From a virus (Duplodnaviria > Caudoviricetes), in the IMG/VR virus record IMGVR_UViG_3300036781_000813, positions 2,095 through 66,094 of that record: a stretch of DNA of 64,000 nucleotides, one strand, 5' to 3'. The notes below the pieces were generated by a model. That model did no database searches. It was not told where the DNA came from and was given only the letters and a program-made list of their open reading frames with translations. This document shows, one piece after another, positions 28,170 to 32,295 of the stretch; positions within the stretch are counted from its first letter, which is position 1, and every line of letters starts with the position of its first letter. The translations under genes and the position numbers were made by a program.

Positions 28170-29018
28170 TCAGTTGAGGCCGATGGCCGCGGCGTGGGGG
28201 TACTTCTTGGCCAGCTCATCGCTGACCGAGGCCTCGACCGTCTTGCTGTCCGAGGCGCGCACGGTGCGGTCGCCAGGCTTAGGCAGGCGCTCGATCAGGA
28301 TGCGCAGCGCCGCGACGTCCTTGACCGCCTTGGCGTCCTGCCCCAGCGCGTCGAGTGTGCTGCGAAGGACCTTCTCGACGCTGTCGTGCGCCATCGACAT
28401 GGCGCCCACCCAGGGGCGGACGAACTCGCGGGCCTCGGCCAGAGCGGTCGCCTCGGCGCGCACGCGCTTCTCGGTGTCCTCGGCCGCCTTCTTGATGGCG
28501 GCGTCCATGGCTTCCTTGGTGACGCCCTTGTCATCCTTCTCGTCGCCCGGAGGGGCTTCCGTGGGATCGGCCGGAACGTTCATGTCACCGGCCTTCTTGC
28601 CCATCATCTTGCCGAAGGCCTCGATCTGGCCCTCGTCCATGCCGCAGTCGGTGAGGAACTTGCGCTGGGCCTCGTCGAGCGCGGGAATCTCGCCCTCGCC
28701 CTCGGCCTCCATCGGCATCTCGTCGGACTCCTGCGCTTCCGCGCTCGGTGCCTCGCCGCCGATGATGTGGCTGGCCAGCATGTGGATGACGTCGTCGGGG
28801 CCCATCTTGCCCGCGGCGCCGTTCGGGTCGGGTGCCAGCATCGGTTCTGCGTCCTTGCAGAGCTTGACGACGATGCCCTTGATCTCGGCCTTGTAGGTCT
28901 TGGCCGTGAGATCCTTCACGTAGGGCACGACGTCGAGCTTCTTGTCCTTGGCCAGACGCGGCCCGACGTAGGCAGCGAGCGCCATCCCGACCGCGAGCCG
29001 GGTCTTCGAAAACTTCAT
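28170..29018 (-). CDS. Capsid scaffold-like protein
   Basis: Charged and helical, AMDAAIK...AREFVRPWVG. Confidence 0.7.
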   Translation of the reverse strand: MKFSKTRLAVGMALAAYVGPRLAKDKKLDVVPYVKDLTAKTYKAEIKGIVVKLCKDAEPMLAPDPNGAAGKMGPDDVIHMLASHIIGGEAPSAEAQESDEMPMEAEGEGEIPALDEAQRKFLTDCGMDEGQIEAFGKMMGKKAGDMNVPADPTEAPPGDEKDDKGVTKEAMDAAIKKAAEDTEKRVRAEATALAEAREFVRPWVGAMSMAHDSVEKVLRSTLDALGQDAKAVKDVAALRILIERLPKPGDRTVRASDSKTVEASVSDELAKKYPHAAAIGLN

Positions 29019-29999: not shown

Positions 30000-30171
30000 C
30001 GTGGTGGTCTTCCTCGTGCCGCTCCTCGACCGGCTGCTCGACCGTCACGGGCTCGGGTGCCGGCGTCGGCGCTGGCTCCTCATCGGGCTGTGGCGTCGCC
30101 TTGGGCGGCTTGCGGTGGAACGGAACGACCGGCATCGGCTGGCCTCCTGTGCCGCTAGCAGCGCCCGGCAA
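29989..30171 (-). CDS. Small Pro/Glu-rich hypothetical protein
   Basis: Fills the gap in the operon, start uncertain. Confidence 0.4.
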   Translation of the reverse strand: MPGAASGTGGQPMPVVPFHRKPPKATPQPDEEPAPTPAPEPVTVEQPVEERHEEDHHDAA

Positions 30172-30358
30172 CCTCCAGTGAGGTCATGGTGCGCAAGGCA
30201 TCGCGAATAGTGTTGCGGTTGACGAAGCGCTTCGGGCAGTCACAGCCGCTTGCGGCGTCTGCCAATTCAATGTCGCTGAGATGCAGCGAGCGGGCCTTGG
30301 CGAAGAACACTCGGCCATCCGAGAGTTGGATCGACACGATCAGTTCCGCGTCGTCCAT
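30155..30358 (-). CDS. Small hypothetical protein
   Basis: TGATG-coupled to the MuF gene. Confidence 0.5.
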   Translation of the reverse strand: MDDAELIVSIQLSDGRVFFAKARSLHLSDIELADAASGCDCPKRFVNRNTIRDALRTMTSLEVAGRC

Positions 30359-32295
30359 CAGACGAAGCCCTCGATTATCGAGCGCGCCGTGCAGCGGCAG
30401 TTTTTGCTGACAAATCCTTGTGTCGTTGTACTATACCACCCGACATTACTTTGGAGGGTATAGACGTGGCCGCTCGTATTTTTACTGATGAGTTTCTTGC
30501 CCACGCGAACGGCCTGAAAGACAAATTCACCAGCCTCAAAGACCTTGCCGCCCATCTCGAAGTTGACGCGGGCGAGTTGAGCAAGAACCTCCGCACTAAG
30601 GGCTATCCCGTCCCTAACGGTCGGATCGGCGCTACCCATCGGCGCATCAACATCGACCTTGACCAGATCGTCGCCCTGCACTGTGCCGGGAATCCCGTCG
30701 CCAGCGTCGCGAAGACATTCGGCGTCTCGCCCACCGTGATCTTTCGTATCATGCGAGGCGGCGGAATTACGCCGCGCAAGGATTTCTACGATTTCACGGA
30801 CGCGGAGATCGTCCGGATGTTCAACGAGGGCTACAGCGTTCTTTCCATCGCCGAGCACTTCAAGGTCTCTCGAAACGTTGTCGCCCATCGGCTGAAGCGC
30901 AACGGCATCACGCCGCGAGGCGCCAGTGCGGCCAACCATCTGCGCTTCGAGCGCACCAGCGGGACCGAGCTTCGGGGTTTGACCGAGGCCGCTCGTCGCA
31001 AGCGGATCGCCAACCTGCGAGACAATGGAACTGACTACGACGCTCCCGCGATTGGTCTCGGCGAGGTCGAATTTCGAGACGCACTCGTCGCTGCCAGCAT
31101 TGAGTTCACGGAGCAGTCGGAACTCGGCCCCTACGCTCTCGACTTCCGAGTCAGGAATGTCGCCGTGGAAGTTAAATACAGCGCCAACCTGACCGCTGGT
31201 TACACCGCGTGGGGACAGCCGGCTGAGCGCGCCGAATATATCCGCAAAGCTAAACTTGGTCTGATTACGATCCTGCATTCCGGCGTCGAGTTTCTTAAGC
31301 CGGCTCTGCCATATGTAGTCGCCCTCGTTGATCGCTTGAGCCGCGACCCATCCTTTCGGAGTCAAGAGCGGATGATTAGGTGTCGCTCGTACAGTGGCCT
31401 CTCCCGCTTCAAGGGCAATAAGGTCGCCCCGGTAGTGGTAACGCCAGACTTTATGGCAACCATTCACGAGATCGACTAGCACATCACCCGGGAAGCAGTT
31501 CGGCAGGGTGCCGGGCCAGATGCGTTGACCGACATCGGGGTCAAGCCAGCCCTCGACGATGTTGTACCGGGTCTTGTCGCGACCGGCCTTCAGATGGCTG
31601 GTCCTTGGATGTTTTCCCCCGCCTGAGTGCTGCCAAACCGCCTCGGTGATACCGAGAGACATCTGGCGACCGCGATTCAACATGGCCGAGGCCTTGTGAT
31701 TCTGATCTCGCGCAATGAACGCCGCTCGCCGCCGCGTCACCCCGTAGGTCTGTTCCAGTTCCTTTGCCAGCGCGCCGACATCGTGGCCGGCGCTGACACT
31801 GCGCATGACGCTGCCTTCCACGTCCTTGAAATACTGCTCCGGGATCGACCGGATCAGGCTGACATTCTCCTGAATGGCCGCCTGGATGAGATCGCGTTGG
31901 GCCGCGGTCATCTTGAAGTCGATGGAGAAGCCGGCCTTCTTGAGGATGGCCTTCAGTTGCTCATCAGTCCGGGCCGATGCCGCCTTGGCGAAGTAGTCGG
32001 CCAGCGACTGGGCGCCTTCATCGAACTTGGCTTCCCACTGCTTGCGGAGCTCGCGGACCACCTTGGAGATCGTGACCGCCGGGGCTTCGTCTTCAGCCAT
32101 AAGCTTCGTTACAGCGGGCTCGTTCGCTCGGTAGGCCGCCAGCACCCATTTCCGGACGGAGCGGTGCATGGCCTCTACAAGCCTGTGCAAACGCTTCTGG
32201 TAGATCACCCGGAGGCCCGCGTTTGCGTTCAGCGGGGGAAGGATGACCTCAGGCATCGAAGCTGCGGGGGGCGCGGGCTCGAGTGCTGCGGCCAC
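30358..32295 (-). CDS. MuF/SPP1 gp7-like head morphogenesis protein, intein-containing precursor
   Basis: RRAAFIARDQNHKA...WQHSGGGKHPRTSH...PGTLPN/CRC motif split by a 366-aa insertion. Follows the portal gene. Confidence 0.92.
   Translation of the reverse strand: MAAALEPAPPAASMPEVILPPLNANAGLRVIYQKRLHRLVEAMHRSVRKWVLAAYRANEPAVTKLMAEDEAPAVTISKVVRELRKQWEAKFDEGAQSLADYFAKAASARTDEQLKAILKKAGFSIDFKMTAAQRDLIQAAIQENVSLIRSIPEQYFKDVEGSVMRSVSAGHDVGALAKELEQTYGVTRRRAAFIARDQNHKASAMLNRGRQMSLGITEAVWQHSGGGKHPRTSHLKAGRDKTRYNIVEGWLDPDVGQRIWPGTLPNCFPGDVLVDLVNGCHKVWRYHYRGDLIALEAGEATVRATPNHPLLTPKGWVAAQAINEGDYIWQSRLKKLDAGMQDRNQTKFSFADIFGALSRLSPRGVTSGQVGAVFNFHGDIPDSEVESVGAEFRLLRELNAGSDECVSKFDLAETNRGSVVVSSIVSQVGDPLATSGLGQTPKLGPAGALEAQMVGRTGASRRDAVALQPMGDNVSRDLEVLGDGKNAVALVEHPDDLRVREIVEILARRNSAASHDTKDHGGRDAECLRDAGDGIPGTVQGDDLVKVDVDAPMGSADPTVRDGIALSAEVLAQLARVNFEMGGKVFEAGEFVFQAVRVGKKLISKNTSGHVYTLQSNVGWYSTTTQGFVSKNCRCTARSIIEGFV
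30407..30458 (+). promoter_or_regulatory. Candidate promoter and RBS for the antisense nuclease gene
   Basis: CTGACA(30407-12)-N16-TACTAT(30429-34), and GGAGGG (30453-58) 7 nt before GTG30466. Confidence 0.55.
30466..31479 (+). CDS. Antisense intein-nested putative homing endonuclease (3x HTH plus PD-(D/E)xK/DUF559-like domain)
   Basis: HTH repeats such as EIVRMFNEGYSVLSIAEHFKVSRNVVAHRLKRNGI, then EVEFRDAL...IEFTEQSELGPYALDF...VAVEVK. Has its own SD. Confidence 0.8.
   Translation: MAARIFTDEFLAHANGLKDKFTSLKDLAAHLEVDAGELSKNLRTKGYPVPNGRIGATHRRINIDLDQIVALHCAGNPVASVAKTFGVSPTVIFRIMRGGGITPRKDFYDFTDAEIVRMFNEGYSVLSIAEHFKVSRNVVAHRLKRNGITPRGASAANHLRFERTSGTELRGLTEAARRKRIANLRDNGTDYDAPAIGLGEVEFRDALVAASIEFTEQSELGPYALDFRVRNVAVEVKYSANLTAGYTAWGQPAERAEYIRKAKLGLITILHSGVEFLKPALPYVVALVDRLSRDPSFRSQERMIRCRSYSGLSRFKGNKVAPVVVTPDFMATIHEID

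What the first reader, a model, noticed from the sequence alone, without database searches (positions are those of the whole stretch)
30400..31497. Intein whose putative homing endonuclease is encoded on the opposite strand
Seen: the MuF head gene is split at PGTLPN|CRC by a 366-aa intein (CFPGD..., TPNH, GHVYTLQ, ...SKN|C). The roughly 270 aa between the splicing blocks show no LAGLIDADG or HNH motif and read like antisense shadow text. The plus strand of the same DNA, in exact codon register, encodes a 337-aa protein (30466-31479) with three tandem HTH repeats and a DUF559/Vsr-like PD-(D/E)xK motif (E..F..AL....IEF..Q..LGPY.LDF....VAVEVK). Established: canonical inteins carry their endonuclease in-frame within the spliced polypeptide. 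Inference: this is a two-strand selfish element, in which splicing removes a stop-free filler from MuF while a separately expressed antisense nuclease drives homing. That would uncouple nuclease expression from late-gene expression. I do not know of this architecture being described.
Basis: partly seen in the sequence, partly recalled or inferred. Interest (0 to 1): 0.96.

Follow-up and report, generated by a model that had tools for sequence, protein, structure and literature searches.

The report
MuF intein with antisense homing endonuclease
A self-splicing protein insert (intein) in a prophage head-assembly gene carries its DNA-cutting mobility enzyme as a separate gene on the opposite strand, codon against codon; this is real and under selection, but a 2025 preprint already described the layout.

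Summary
The minus-strand MuF gene (30358-32295) carries a 366-aa intein (30400-31497). The plus strand, in exact antisense codon register, holds a 337-aa ORF (30466-31479).

The plus ORF is a real gene. It has Pfam HTH hits above cut-off and a confident AF2 model (pLDDT 85.4). Its C-terminal domain matches Vsr (Z 10.8), NGO0050 and I-Bth0305I. More than 1,200 cluster representatives match it.

All 17 nested loci examined (GC 0.36-0.69) keep both frames open in the same register. They never use TTA, CTA or TCA inside the overlap, although 13-15 were expected in AT-rich phages. Resampling shows the nuclease frame is selected in the middle and the Hint frame at both ends.

The layout is not new. 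Gosselin, Arsenault and Gogarten (bioRxiv 10.1101/2025.01.02.630785) describe anti-sense VSR-like endonucleases in full inteins of actinophage minor capsid proteins. This scan has also met the same thing on other DNA (201 earlier findings).

Extras seen here:
- The "filler" holds an invariant sense motif, FHGD, written on the same 12 bases as the nuclease's catalytic strand VAVE.
- The nuclease start codon is the antisense of the block-F His codon.
- Acinetobacter phages carry a free-standing copy beside an intein-less MuF.

Expression, splicing and cleavage were not tested.

The parts
30358..32295 (-). MuF/gp7-type head-morphogenesis precursor ORF (645 aa from GTG; Met14 start at 32256 gives 632 aa), stop TGA at 30358-30360
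   Evidence: ORF; phrog_324 head morphogenesis E 4.8e-67 and phrog_15127 E 3.6e-70. Pfam Phage_Mu_F 27.5 bits, just under its 29.6-bit cut-off; gene order is portal (PF06381), MuF, DUF2213.
30400..31497 (-). Intein, 366 aa, Cys1 to terminal Asn, inserted at LPN^CRC
   Evidence: junction codons. C1, TPNHP, GD, FHGD, block-F HV, terminal N and Cys+1 are invariant in 20 of 20 aligned precursors; phmmer to the Mtu RecA intein, E 0.002; the top Foldseek hits are intein splicing domains (prob 0.96, E 8e-3).
31288..31497 (-). Canonical Hint N-lobe (intein residues about 1-70: block A Cys1, block B TPNH, GD motif); its antisense is the last helix and C-terminal tail of the nuclease
   Evidence: query residues 24-66 align to Mtu RecA intein 54-97; pLDDT 67-86 for precursor residues 267-332; sense-frame conservation exceeds expectation at z 9-16 in 31309-31461.
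31159..31170 (.). Twelve bases read on both strands: sense FHGD (intein 110-113) and antisense nuclease strand V232-A233-V234-E235
   Evidence: codons are GTC 14/ATC 3, GCC 16, GTG 16 and GAA 17 of 17 nested loci (GC 0.36-0.69). The sense z-scores are 6.6-9.5. The free-standing Acinetobacter copy uses GTG GCG CTG GAA. FHGD is invariant in 20 of 20. A233 and E235 are invariant in 63 of 63.
30688..31125 (-). Sense-frame filler of the intein: stop-free, poorly conserved, predicted disordered
   Evidence: pLDDT 24-35 for precursor residues 391-536; sense conservation is at the level the nuclease protein imposes in 30694-31119 (z -1.2 to 4.1).
30400..30528 (-). Hint C-lobe (blocks F and G: ...SGHVYTLQSNVGWYSTTTQGFVSKN)
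   Evidence: strands at 592-631, pLDDT 70-80. H610, V611 and N632 are invariant; sense z 12.1 in 30439-30648.
30361..30399 (-). C-extein, 13 aa (CRCTARSIIEGFV)
   Evidence: The intein-less allele in L021 reads ELPNCRCTWEAV.
30466..31479 (+). Antisense homing-endonuclease gene, 337 aa, GTG start, TAG stop
   Evidence: The start aligns with Met1 of homologues P0002-P0004 and P0007.
30487..30900 (+). Three helix-turn-helix units (residues 8-44, 65-98, 112-145)
   Evidence: helices, pLDDT mostly above 90. (HTH_38, HTH_7 and HTH_23 above cut-off). (resolvase, GcrA and KorB DNA-binding domains, Z 5-7). (Cbp1-like 2lvs, E 1.8e-8).
31045..31476 (+). Vsr-like nuclease domain with tail (residues 194-337; E200, Y223, D226, E235)
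   Evidence: 1cw0 Vsr Z 10.8, rmsd 3.2, 116 aligned over 194-337; 3hrl Z 9.9; 3r3p I-Bth0305I Z 9.6. (invariant residues); profile vs 3hrl, E 3.2e-7.
30453..30468 (+). Shine-Dalgarno-like GGAGG (30453-30457) and GTG start (30466-30468), built from the antisense of the block-F codons H-V-Y-T-L-Q
   Evidence: sequence; the start codon is the antisense of the block-F His codon in 10 of 10 nested loci examined.
30407..30434 (+). Promoter-like site CTGACA-16-TACTAT, inside the antisense of block G/F
   Evidence: 9 of 12 matches, but 1 site found against 0.7 expected in shuffles, so this is weak alone; a -10-like hexamer ends 26-31 nt before the start in 7 of 10 nested loci.

Best explanation
This is a two-gene selfish element inserted at the LPN^CRC site, 13 codons before the end of a prophage MuF head-morphogenesis gene.

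Minus strand: the late operon translates a 645-aa precursor. The intein's Hint lobes (residues about 1-70 and about 325-366) should excise all 366 aa by class-1-type protein splicing and ligate a 279-aa MuF. Much of the sequence between the lobes is a disordered, stop-free linker.

Plus strand: the same codons read backwards encode a 337-aa homing endonuclease with three HTH DNA-binding units and a Vsr/I-Bth0305I-like nuclease. Its ribosome-binding site and start codon, and probably its promoter, are built from the antisense of Hint blocks F and G. The nuclease is inferred to cut intein-less MuF alleles at or near the insertion site in a co-resident phage, so that repair copies the intein and nuclease in.

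Exact antisense register is kept because it is the only register in which each frame stays open by avoiding just three codons (TTA, CTA, TCA).

Shown: both genes are real, both frames are under selection in complementary regions, and the layout is conserved across very different phages. Inferred: separate transcription, splicing competence, cleavage and homing.
For: Anatomy.

The nuclease gene is real:
- Pfam HTH hits above cut-off.
- 1,273 cluster representatives at E<=1e-3, 210 at E<=1e-10.
- Y223, D226, A233 and E235 invariant in 63 of 63 aligned sequences.
- AF2 pLDDT 85.4.
- Vsr Z 10.8, NGO0050 Z 9.9, I-Bth0305I Z 9.6.
- 23 of 63 family members hit Pfam REase_MTES_1575 and 4 of 63 hit DUF559.
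- The family profile hits 3hrl at E 3.2e-7 and 3r3p at E 0.014.

The layout is conserved:
- tblastn found 38 phage records.
- Of the 17 I opened, 15 have the homologue antisense inside a MuF-type CDS next to the portal gene, and 2 (Acinetobacter) have it free-standing.
- Adding one IMG/VR locus and the window gives 17 of 17 nested loci with both frames open and register offset 0, at GC 0.36-0.69.

Selection keeps the host frame open:
- No TTA, CTA or TCA occurs inside the overlap in 7 of 7 loci tested.
- 12.8 were expected in Aaphi23 (P 4e-7) and 15.1 in the Vibrio phage (P 7e-9).
- The free-standing copy uses 13.

Complementary selection (11 non-redundant loci, 300 resamplings):
- Nuclease-frame conservation exceeds what the sense protein imposes by z 5.7-19.2 in 30694-31119, where the sense frame shows z -1.2 to 4.1.
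- The sense frame exceeds expectation by z 9-16 in 31309-31461 and z 12 in 30439-30648.

Intein features:
- Invariant C1, TPNHP, block F HV, terminal N and Cys+1.
- RecA-intein sequence match, E 0.002.
- Intein splicing domains top the Foldseek list.
- Filler pLDDT 24-35.

Empty site and sporadic distribution:
- 883 phage records carry N-extein homologues (E<=1e-8), against 34 with the nuclease family (leaving out 4 Burkholderia HTH-only hits).
- The best N-extein match reads ELPNCRCT without an insert.

Same kind in print: anti-sense VSR-like HEN in full inteins of actinophage minor capsid proteins, with 1CW0 at Z 10.6.
Against: - There is no expression evidence. No RNA run is listed for this DNA, and the one DNA run gave no variant or intein-less joint.
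- The promoter-like site is not above the shuffle expectation in the window (1 found, 0.7 expected).
- The window's own nuclease domain hits no Pfam nuclease family at E<=1. Only relatives do.
- The position after E235 (K237 here) is not conserved in the family, so a classical E-x-K is not a family feature.
- The Pfam Intein_splicing hit is below its cut-off (24.7 vs 35.8 bits).
- The residue where, from my recollection, class-1 inteins carry the block-F Asp is T/N/S here. The residue before the terminal Asn is Lys in the window. Splicing competence is therefore not assured.
- The AF2 precursor model is only moderate (pLDDT 62.5, 20 sequences), and Foldseek E-values to inteins are weak (8e-3, high rmsd).
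- No close relative with DNA was found, so recent homing of this particular copy cannot be shown.
Confidence: 0.82

Rival explanations
1. This is a canonical intein with an in-frame sense-strand domain. The plus ORF is a GC-driven shadow ORF that stays open because the exact antisense register rarely meets stops in a 64% GC genome.
For: The window is 63.6% GC. In this register only the sense codons TTA, CTA and TCA close the antisense frame, and they are rare here: the extein background has 0 of 20 Leu codons and 1 of 17 Ser codons of these types. For the window alone the chance of no forbidden codon is 0.23.
Against: The plus protein passes three Pfam HTH cut-offs and folds at pLDDT 85.4 into HTH units plus a Vsr-like nuclease. 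The same ORF is open in loci of 36-43% GC. The sense middle has no Pfam hit, pLDDT 24-35 and conservation no higher than the nuclease protein imposes. GC3 is high in the plus frame through the middle.
Confidence: 0.02
2. The antisense gene is real but no longer works as a homing endonuclease in this provirus. It could be a decaying relic, or it could have been taken over as a DNA-binding regulator or exclusion factor, while the intein is inherited vertically.
For: - The three HTH units are the best-scoring part of the protein.
- The preprint reports that most VSR-like-HEN inteins show patterns suggestive of vertical inheritance, with only two clusters looking horizontally transferred (section 15).
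- Some relatives look reduced. In Sedona and ViaConlectus the N-terminal HTH region does not align and tblastn covers only 63-69%. The Helicobacter prophage copy has IFIE in place of VAVE.
- No close relatives of the window's copy were found that could show recent movement.
Against: The window's copy keeps every invariant nuclease residue (E200, Y223, D226, A233, E235) and an open 337-codon frame. Nuclease-frame conservation is strongest over the catalytic core (z 17.8 in 31120-31164). The element is sporadic among MuF homologues (34 vs 883 records), and empty sites exist.
Confidence: 0.13
3. The intein no longer splices. The MuF gene is then either inactivated by the insert or works as an unspliced 645-aa protein, and the open sense frame is merely tolerated.
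For: The window's intein has Lys before the terminal Asn and Thr where, from my recollection, class-1 inteins carry the block-F Asp. The Pfam and NCBIfam intein hits are below cut-off. Only 13 residues follow the insert, so a truncated or extended MuF might be tolerated.
Against: Cys1, TPNHP, block F HV, the terminal Asn and Cys+1 are invariant in 20 of 20 precursors. Sense-frame selection is strong exactly over the Hint lobes (z 9-16). The host frame is kept open against codon bias (P down to 7e-9). None of this would be maintained if splicing did not matter.
Confidence: 0.03

Closest known systems
Full inteins with an anti-sense VSR-like homing endonuclease in actinobacteriophage minor capsid (MuF-like) proteins (Gosselin, Arsenault, Gogarten, bioRxiv 10.1101/2025.01.02.630785; abstract, sections 8 and 15 and passages read)
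   Same: The host gene type is the same (MuF-like minor capsid). The intein is contiguous with a separate endonuclease ORF on the anti-sense strand. The nuclease fold is the same: their model matches 1CW0 at Z 10.6 and mine at Z 10.8, and both link to 3R3P. Gordonia phages of the kind they surveyed (Fosterous, Vivi2, Malisha and others) are direct homologues of the window's nuclease.
   Different: The window is a 64% GC provirus from a soil metagenome record, not a PhagesDB actinophage. I also find the family in phages of Klebsiella, Edwardsiella, Aggregatibacter, Vibrio and a Helicobacter prophage. [quoted passage not shown] Its main text has no hit for 'register' or 'promoter'. I could not see its supplements.
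Anti-sense LAGLIDADG endonuclease ORFs in inteins (Synechocystis DnaX, Chloroflexus SpoVR-like; Gorbalenya 1998 and Gogarten 2002, known to me only as cited in the preprint)
   Same: An endonuclease gene sits on the strand opposite to a contiguous intein.
   Different: The nuclease family differs (LAGLIDADG vs Vsr-like), and so do the host genes. I did not read those papers.
'Fractured genes': split inteins with a free-standing Vsr-like homing-endonuclease gene between the halves (Dassa et al. 2009, PMC2677866; abstract read)
   Same: A Vsr-related predicted homing-endonuclease family is associated with inteins, mainly in phage. The nuclease is a separate gene with its own control elements, and the family also occurs as stand-alone inserts.
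   Different: In fractured genes the host gene and intein are broken in two and splice in trans. Here the sense frame is kept open through the nuclease gene, so the intein is one polypeptide. That paper's text has no hit for 'antisense', 'opposite strand' or 'reverse'.
I-Bth0305I (PDB 3R3P) and the Vsr / NGO0050 (3HRL) endonuclease fold
   Same: The fold of residues 194-296 matches (Z 9.6-10.8). There is also profile-level sequence similarity (3hrl E 3.2e-7, 3r3p E 0.014).
   Different: By its PDB titles, 3R3P is the I-Bth0305I homing-endonuclease catalytic domain, named 'Mobile intron protein'. The window's protein carries three N-terminal HTH units and sits antisense in an intein. I did not test whether the named EDxHD signature is present.
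Canonical bifunctional inteins with an in-frame endonuclease domain (e.g. PI-MtuI, the Mtu RecA intein)
   Same: The Hint splicing lobes are shared; blocks B/N4 align to PI-MtuI at E 0.002. The inferred life cycle is the same: splice at the protein level, home at the DNA level.
   Different: The endonuclease is not part of the spliced polypeptide. The in-frame middle is largely non-conserved filler.

Membership tests
Intein (class 1 type, Hint domain) | N-terminal nucleophile (Cys/Ser1) directly after the N-extein | tested here: met
   Cys1 at 31495-31497; invariant in 20 of 20 precursors.
Intein (class 1 type, Hint domain) | Block B TxxH motif | tested here: met
   TPNH at precursor residues 305-308; TPNHP is invariant in 20 of 20. 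It aligns to ATPDH of the Mtu RecA intein.
Intein (class 1 type, Hint domain) | C-terminal Asn followed by a Cys/Ser/Thr +1 nucleophile | tested here: met
   N632|C633 invariant in 20 of 20; codons checked.
Intein (class 1 type, Hint domain) | Block-F Asp and penultimate His (features recalled from general intein knowledge, not from a call) | tested here: not met
   Block F reads HVY(T/N/S)L(Q/E), and the window has Lys before the terminal Asn. From recollection, many active inteins lack the penultimate His, so this lowers confidence in splicing but does not exclude it.
Intein (class 1 type, Hint domain) | Hint fold or curated family model | tested here: inconclusive
   Pfam Intein_splicing scores 24.7 bits against a 35.8-bit cut-off. 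NCBIfam intein_Nterm scores 14.2 against 24.5. The top Foldseek hits of the precursor model are intein splicing domains, but at E 8e-3 and rmsd about 15. The Hint lobes have pLDDT 67-86.
Intein (class 1 type, Hint domain) | Protein splicing activity | not testable with these tools
   This needs expression of the precursor.
Non-canonical intein with anti-sense VSR-like HEN (Gosselin et al. 2025 preprint) | A separate endonuclease ORF on the anti-sense strand inside a contiguous (unsplit) intein | tested here: met
   (both frames open, register 0).
Non-canonical intein with anti-sense VSR-like HEN (Gosselin et al. 2025 preprint) | The endonuclease model matches Vsr (1CW0) and relates to 3R3P | tested here: met
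   1cw0_A Z 10.8, rmsd 3.2, 116 aligned; 3r3p_B Z 9.6. The preprint reports Z 10.6.
Non-canonical intein with anti-sense VSR-like HEN (Gosselin et al. 2025 preprint) | Direct homology to the actinophage examples | tested here: met
   tblastn of the window's nuclease hits the anti-sense strand of MuF-like genes in 14 Gordonia phage records (E down to 2e-16; loci L001, L007, L015-L018). I could not check these against the preprint's cluster list because its supplements are closed.
Vsr-like / PD-(D/E)xK-type nuclease (Pfam REase_MTES_1575, DUF559 group) | Sequence match to a curated family model | tested here: inconclusive
   The window's own protein has no nuclease family at E<=1. Among family members, 23 of 63 match PF18741 (best 1e-9) and 4 of 63 match PF04480. 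The family profile matches 3hrl at E 3.2e-7.
Vsr-like / PD-(D/E)xK-type nuclease (Pfam REase_MTES_1575, DUF559 group) | Conserved acidic catalytic residues on the core strands | tested here: met
   D226 and E235 are invariant and E200 is at least 90% conserved in 63 sequences. They lie on or beside strands 227-229 and 232-238 of the model. Their catalytic role is inferred.
Homing endonuclease | Site-specific cleavage of the insert-less allele and gene conversion | not testable with these tools
   The support is indirect only: a sporadic distribution (34 vs 883 phage records) and an empty allele ELPNCRCT.
MuF / SPP1 gp7 head-morphogenesis protein | Family model match and position after the portal gene | tested here: met
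   phrog_324 E 4.8e-67. Pfam PF04233 scores 27.5 bits, just below its 29.6-bit cut-off. The gene lies downstream of a PF06381 portal gene. 883 phage homologues of the N-extein exist, many of them annotated as head morphogenesis.

The most novel reading that the evidence does not exclude
The overlap is double coding at functional sites, not a nuclease gene parked in a linker. The nuclease's catalytic strand (V/I)AVE and an invariant sense-frame motif FHGD (intein residues 110-113) are written on the same 12 bases. FHGD lies beyond the canonical Hint N-lobe. All four codons are fixed (GTC/ATC, GCC, GTG, GAA in 16-17 of 17 loci from 36 to 69% GC), and this fixation relaxes in the free-standing copy. 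FHGD may supply a His/Asp that this intein family needs for splicing, since its block F has T/N/S where I recall an Asp. The nuclease's start codon and ribosome-binding site, and probably its -10 element, are made of Hint block F/G codons, and its C-terminal tail is the antisense of Hint blocks A-B. The free-standing Acinetobacter copy still shows a block-F-like leader and a homologous tail. That would mean it descends from a nested ancestor: an intein was lost and left a free-standing homing gene beside the healed site, the reverse of the usual 'free-standing HEG invades intein' model.
Probability: 0.35. Interest if true: 0.55.

Novelty: new member of a known kind. Interest (0 to 1): 0.35.

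Why it matters
The element shows how a selfish pair, a protein-splicing domain and a homing nuclease, can share DNA on opposite strands. The host gene survives only because three codons are never used in the nuclease gene. This is a clear natural case of long antisense double coding under measurable selection.

The nuclease gene is unannotated in 15 of the 15 nested phage records I opened. In each, the only annotated feature is the MuF or hypothetical CDS on the other strand. Genome annotation therefore misses it routinely.

The family is not confined to actinophages. It occurs in phages of several Proteobacteria and in a Helicobacter prophage.

The FHGD/VAVE pinch point allows a direct test of whether the sense "filler" contributes to splicing. 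The Acinetobacter free-standing copy beside an intein-less MuF bears on how inteins and homing endonucleases associate and part.

As a discovery it ranks modestly. The layout is already described in a preprint, and this scan has met it many times.

Tried and rejected
- Shadow-ORF explanation: rejected (see the rival explanations).
- Close relatives with DNA, for a dN/dS-type test on the window's own lineage. Single-protein scan of viral contigs: none. Alignment A1 was too diverse for the tool. The five-sequence alignment A2 gave one distant IMG/VR locus (L010), nothing in genome contigs, and one short HTH-only metagenome hit that I did not use (L011). I therefore used resampling across 11 divergent loci instead.
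- RNA evidence: no RNA holder is listed.
- Laying the single DNA run (Logan contigs, possibly the source sample) gave no variants, no joints and no intein-less form.
- Whole-chain Foldseek of the nuclease model against PDB gave no hit at E<=0.001. The domain hits 3r3p and 3hrl appeared at E about 0.03 with prob 1.00. The VIA wide search then gave clear Z-scores.
- Single-sequence phmmer of the nuclease against PDB found nothing useful.
- Structural role of FHGD: the AF2 precursor model has pLDDT below 50 there, so it says nothing either way. phmmer places the canonical Hint N-lobe end near intein residue 66-70. I therefore dropped my interim idea that FHGD is the last strand of the Hint N-lobe.
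- Hint remnant in the antisense of the free-standing Acinetobacter nuclease tail: no TPNH-like text, and several stops. The leader shows only a weak block-F-like reading, HVHSLM*. The direction of evolution remains open.
- Literature searches:
  - 'intein' + 'homing endonuclease' + 'opposite strand': 41 papers, none on this among the 20 listed; one was read for passages.
  - 'intein' + 'MuF': irrelevant hits.
  - 'MupF' + 'intein': 0 papers.
  - 'intein', 'antisense', 'free-standing', 'endonuclease', 'overlapping': 4 papers, none relevant by title or abstract.
  - 'Aaphi23' + 'intein': 1 paper, which concerns a TerL intein of phiCbK.
  - 'intein', 'actinophage', 'minor capsid' (at least 2 terms): this search found the preprint.
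  - My recollection that InBase lists an Aaphi23 'MupF' intein comes from no call.
- The preprint's supplements (cluster tables, predicted structures) are closed. They may already show ORF positions relative to the splicing blocks.

Full report
WHAT IS THERE. The minus strand carries a 645-aa ORF (30358..32295). It is a MuF/gp7-type head-morphogenesis protein: phrog_324 E 4.8e-67 and phrog_15127 E 3.6e-70, and Pfam Phage_Mu_F 27.5 bits, just under its cut-off. It sits between a portal gene (PF06381) and a DUF2213 gene. The protein reads ...TLPN|CFPGD...TPNH...GHVYTLQ...VSKN|CRCTARSIIEGFV*. Reading the junction codons base by base puts the intein at 30400..31497 (366 aa), with a 13-aa C-extein. 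The plus strand holds an ORF from GTG 30466 to TAG 31479 (337 aa), and its codons are the exact reverse complements of the intein's codons (register offset 0). The window is a provirus record from IMG/VR.

THE PLUS ORF IS A REAL GENE.
- GC by codon position flips in the middle of the intein, so the plus frame has the high third-position GC there.
- The protein passes the Pfam gathering cut-offs of HTH_38, HTH_7 and HTH_23.
- An exhaustive HMMER search found 1,273 cluster representatives at E<=1e-3 and 210 at E<=1e-10.
- In a 63-sequence alignment Y223, D226, A233 and E235 are invariant.
- AlphaFold2 with that alignment gives pLDDT 85.4. The model has three three-helix HTH units (8-44, 65-98, 112-145), a helical linker, and an alpha/beta domain at 200-293 followed by two tail strands.
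- The VIA wide search puts Vsr (1cw0, Z 10.8, rmsd 3.2, 116 aligned, model 194-337), NGO0050 (3hrl, Z 9.9) and I-Bth0305I (3r3p, Z 9.6) on top. Foldseek listed 3r3p and 3hrl at prob 1.00 but whole-chain E about 0.03.
- By sequence, 23 of 63 family members match Pfam REase_MTES_1575 and 4 of 63 match DUF559. The family profile matches 3hrl at E 3.2e-7 and 3r3p at E 0.014.
- The window's own protein matches no nuclease family by itself.

THE LAYOUT IS CONSERVED AND SELECTED. tblastn of the plus protein against 50,697 phage records hit 38 records. Four Burkholderia hits cover only the HTH part of annotated GIY-YIG or other endonucleases. I opened 17 of the other 34.
- In 15 of them (Gordonia phages Fosterous, Malisha, Vivi2, Angelicage, Sedona and ViaConlectus; four Klebsiella phages; Edwardsiella MSW-3; Aaphi23; a Vibrio phage; virus Rctr197k; a Helicobacter prophage) the match lies on the strand opposite to a MuF-like/head CDS, or a hypothetical CDS, next to the portal gene. 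The nuclease ORF is not annotated in any of them.
- With one IMG/VR locus and the window, that makes 17 of 17 nested loci with both frames open and register 0, at locus GC from 0.36 to 0.69.
- In this register a sense stop is the antisense of TTA, CTA or TCA. Nested nuclease genes use none of these inside the overlap in 7 of 7 loci tested. From the flanking extein codon usage, 12.8 were expected in Aaphi23 (P 4e-7), 15.1 in the Vibrio phage (P 7e-9), 6.9 in the Klebsiella phage and 5.3 in the Edwardsiella phage. For the GC-rich window only 1.4 were expected (P 0.23), so the window alone proves nothing on this test.
- The two TCA codons in the window's longer open frame lie at or before the MuF stop. 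The one CTA in Malisha's open frame must lie outside the overlap, because the opposite frame is open there.
- The free-standing Acinetobacter copy uses 13 such codons.

WHICH FRAME IS SELECTED WHERE. For 11 non-redundant nested loci I held one frame's amino acids fixed and resampled its synonymous codons 300 times, using each locus's own codon usage without the three forbidden codons. I then compared the other frame's observed pairwise identity with the resampled expectation.
- Between 30694 and 31119 the nuclease frame exceeds expectation by z 5.7-19.2, while the sense frame shows z -1.2 to 4.1.
- At 31309-31461 and at 30439-30648 the sense frame exceeds expectation by z 9-16 and z 12, while the nuclease frame shows z 1.7-5.3.
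- AF2 of the whole precursor (20-sequence alignment, pLDDT 62.5) agrees. MuF and the two Hint lobes are modelled (67-86 and 70-80), and residues 391-536 (30688-31125) have pLDDT 24-35.
- The best Foldseek hits of that model are intein splicing domains (Mtu RecA, Ssp DnaB, DnaX), although weakly (E 8e-3).
- phmmer aligns intein residues 24-66 to Mtu RecA intein residues 54-97 (E 0.002).

NOT ALL FILLER. In 31120-31263 both frames exceed expectation (sense z 5.4-9.3). Column by column, the excess sits mainly on four codons. Nuclease V232-A233-V234-E235 is the antisense of sense D113-G112-H111-F110. The codons are GTC (14) or ATC (3), GCC (16), GTG (16) and GAA (17) of 17 nested loci. Synonymous alternatives would not create stops, and GC content ranges from 36 to 69%. 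The free-standing copy has GTG GCG CTG GAA. FHGD is invariant in 20 of 20 precursor proteins, and A233 and E235 are invariant in 63 of 63 nuclease proteins. Both readings of these 12 bases are therefore constrained. FHGD lies about 45 residues past the end of the canonical Hint N-lobe, and the model is uninformative there. Its role is unknown. A contribution to splicing is my guess, because block F has T/N/S at the position where I recall an Asp in class-1 inteins.

EXPRESSION SIGNALS INSIDE THE HINT C-LOBE. In 10 of 10 nested loci examined, the nuclease start codon (ATG or GTG) is the antisense of the His codon of block F, (G)H(V/I)(Y/F/H)(N/T/S)L(Q/E). A GGAG-like ribosome-binding site falls on the antisense of the L-(Q/E) codons (window GGAGG 30453-30457). 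A -10-like hexamer ends 26-31 nt before the start in 7 of 10 loci. In the window the scan finds CTGACA-16-TACTAT at 30407-30434, but one site against 0.7 expected in shuffles is not significant by itself. The nuclease's last 40-60 residues are the antisense of Hint blocks A-B; for example the family's (Y)RVIRC is the antisense of TPNHP. As a proxy, 85 of the 104 representatives that carry the catalytic-strand motif also carry a tail motif compatible with antisense TPNHP at the right distance. In total 152 representatives were examined, and 48 lack the strand motif, many of them long HTH-only matches.

EMPTY SITES AND A FREE-STANDING RELATIVE. The N-extein has homologues in 883 phage records (E<=1e-8), against 34 records with the nuclease family. 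The element is therefore sporadic. The thresholds differ, so the ratio is rough. The best N-extein match, Klebsiella phage ST15-VIM1phi2.1, has the same portal-MuF-DUF2213 order and an uninterrupted ...ELPNCRCTWEAV.... In Acinetobacter phages BUCT629 and IME285 the nuclease homologue is an annotated free-standing gene. It converges on an intein-less MuF (...LPMCKCRAKL...) and overlaps its 3' end by 7 nt. Its tail still aligns with the nested tails, and its leader reads block-F-like in antisense (HVHSLM*), but the antisense of its tail shows no Hint text. Whether it is an ancestor or a derivative of the nested form is open.

WHAT IS KNOWN. Gosselin, Arsenault and Gogarten (bioRxiv 10.1101/2025.01.02.630785, version of 2025-10-20; abstract, sections 8 and 15 and passages read) report anti-sense VSR-like HENs in full inteins of actinophage proteins, including minor capsid proteins, with a 1CW0 match at Z 10.6 and an HHpred link to 3R3P. 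They cite Gorbalenya 1998 and Gogarten 2002 for anti-sense LAGLIDADG HENs (I did not read those papers) and Dassa et al. 2009 for Vsr-like HENs in split inteins (abstract read). This scan has also recorded the same thing on other DNA (201 findings hold the search words), and several follow-ups reached the same preprint. I had found the preprint and run the register and codon tests before looking at those notes.

What I did not see in the preprint's main text:
- the register and the forbidden-codon signature (0 hits for 'register');
- the FHGD/VAVE pinch point;
- the spread beyond actinophages.

LIMITS. No expression data exist for this DNA. Splicing, cleavage and homing are inferred. The resampling test breaks shared ancestry, so related loci could inflate the 'unselected' frame; the near-zero sense z-scores in the middle act as an internal control.

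VERDICT. This is a real, selected, two-strand intein/endonuclease element. It is a new member, in a soil provirus, of a kind described in 2025. A few mechanistic details are worth testing.

Noticed in passing
L008 2935-4640 (Acinetobacter phage BUCT629); also L006 (IME285): A free-standing homologue of the nuclease (annotated as hypothetical) converges on an intein-less MuF (258 aa, ...LPMCKCRAKL...) and overlaps its stop by 7 nt. It uses 13 TTA/CTA/TCA codons. Its leader reads HVHSLM* in antisense, which resembles Hint block F. About 670 nt upstream of it carry no annotated gene.
   Followed up: partly
L017 (Gordonia phage Sedona) and L018 (ViaConlectus), about 1650-2820: The nuclease homologues lack an alignable first HTH region, and tblastn covers only 63-69% of the query (E 2e-4 to 2e-5). 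These may be shortened or decaying copies, yet both frames are still open.
   Followed up: no
L020 1830-2738 (Helicobacter sp. prophage, GC 0.36): This is the only nested locus where the pinch-point codons differ. The nuclease reads IFIE instead of VAVE, and the sense frame reads FYKD instead of FHGD. Both frames are still open.
   Followed up: no
window 30466-30630: The window's nuclease and its closest relatives (P0002-P0004, P0007) carry an extra N-terminal HTH unit (residues about 8-44) that the phage homologues lack. The start codon is at the block-F His codon in all of them, so this lineage's intein has a longer stretch just upstream of block F.
   Followed up: partly
proteins P0167, P0170, P0172, P0173: Homologous inteins with the same FHGD and block-F motifs sit in other head-protein families (PF06152 Phage_min_cap2, PF18823), at an ...HPNC|...|HNC... 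type site. Some have much shorter middles. I could not check whether those still encode an antisense nuclease, because no DNA was available.
   Followed up: no
PHROG phrog_15127: This 'head protein' profile (602 positions) matches the precursor through residues 30-432, running through the intein N-lobe and part of the filler. The family model itself therefore contains intein sequence.
   Followed up: no
window 30155-30358 (-) and 28170-29018 (-): A 67-aa ORF lies immediately downstream of MuF, and a 282-aa acidic ORF lies downstream of the DUF2213 gene. Neither has a Pfam match. The 282-aa ORF sits in the position where a scaffold-like protein might be expected; this is a guess from position only.
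   Followed up: no
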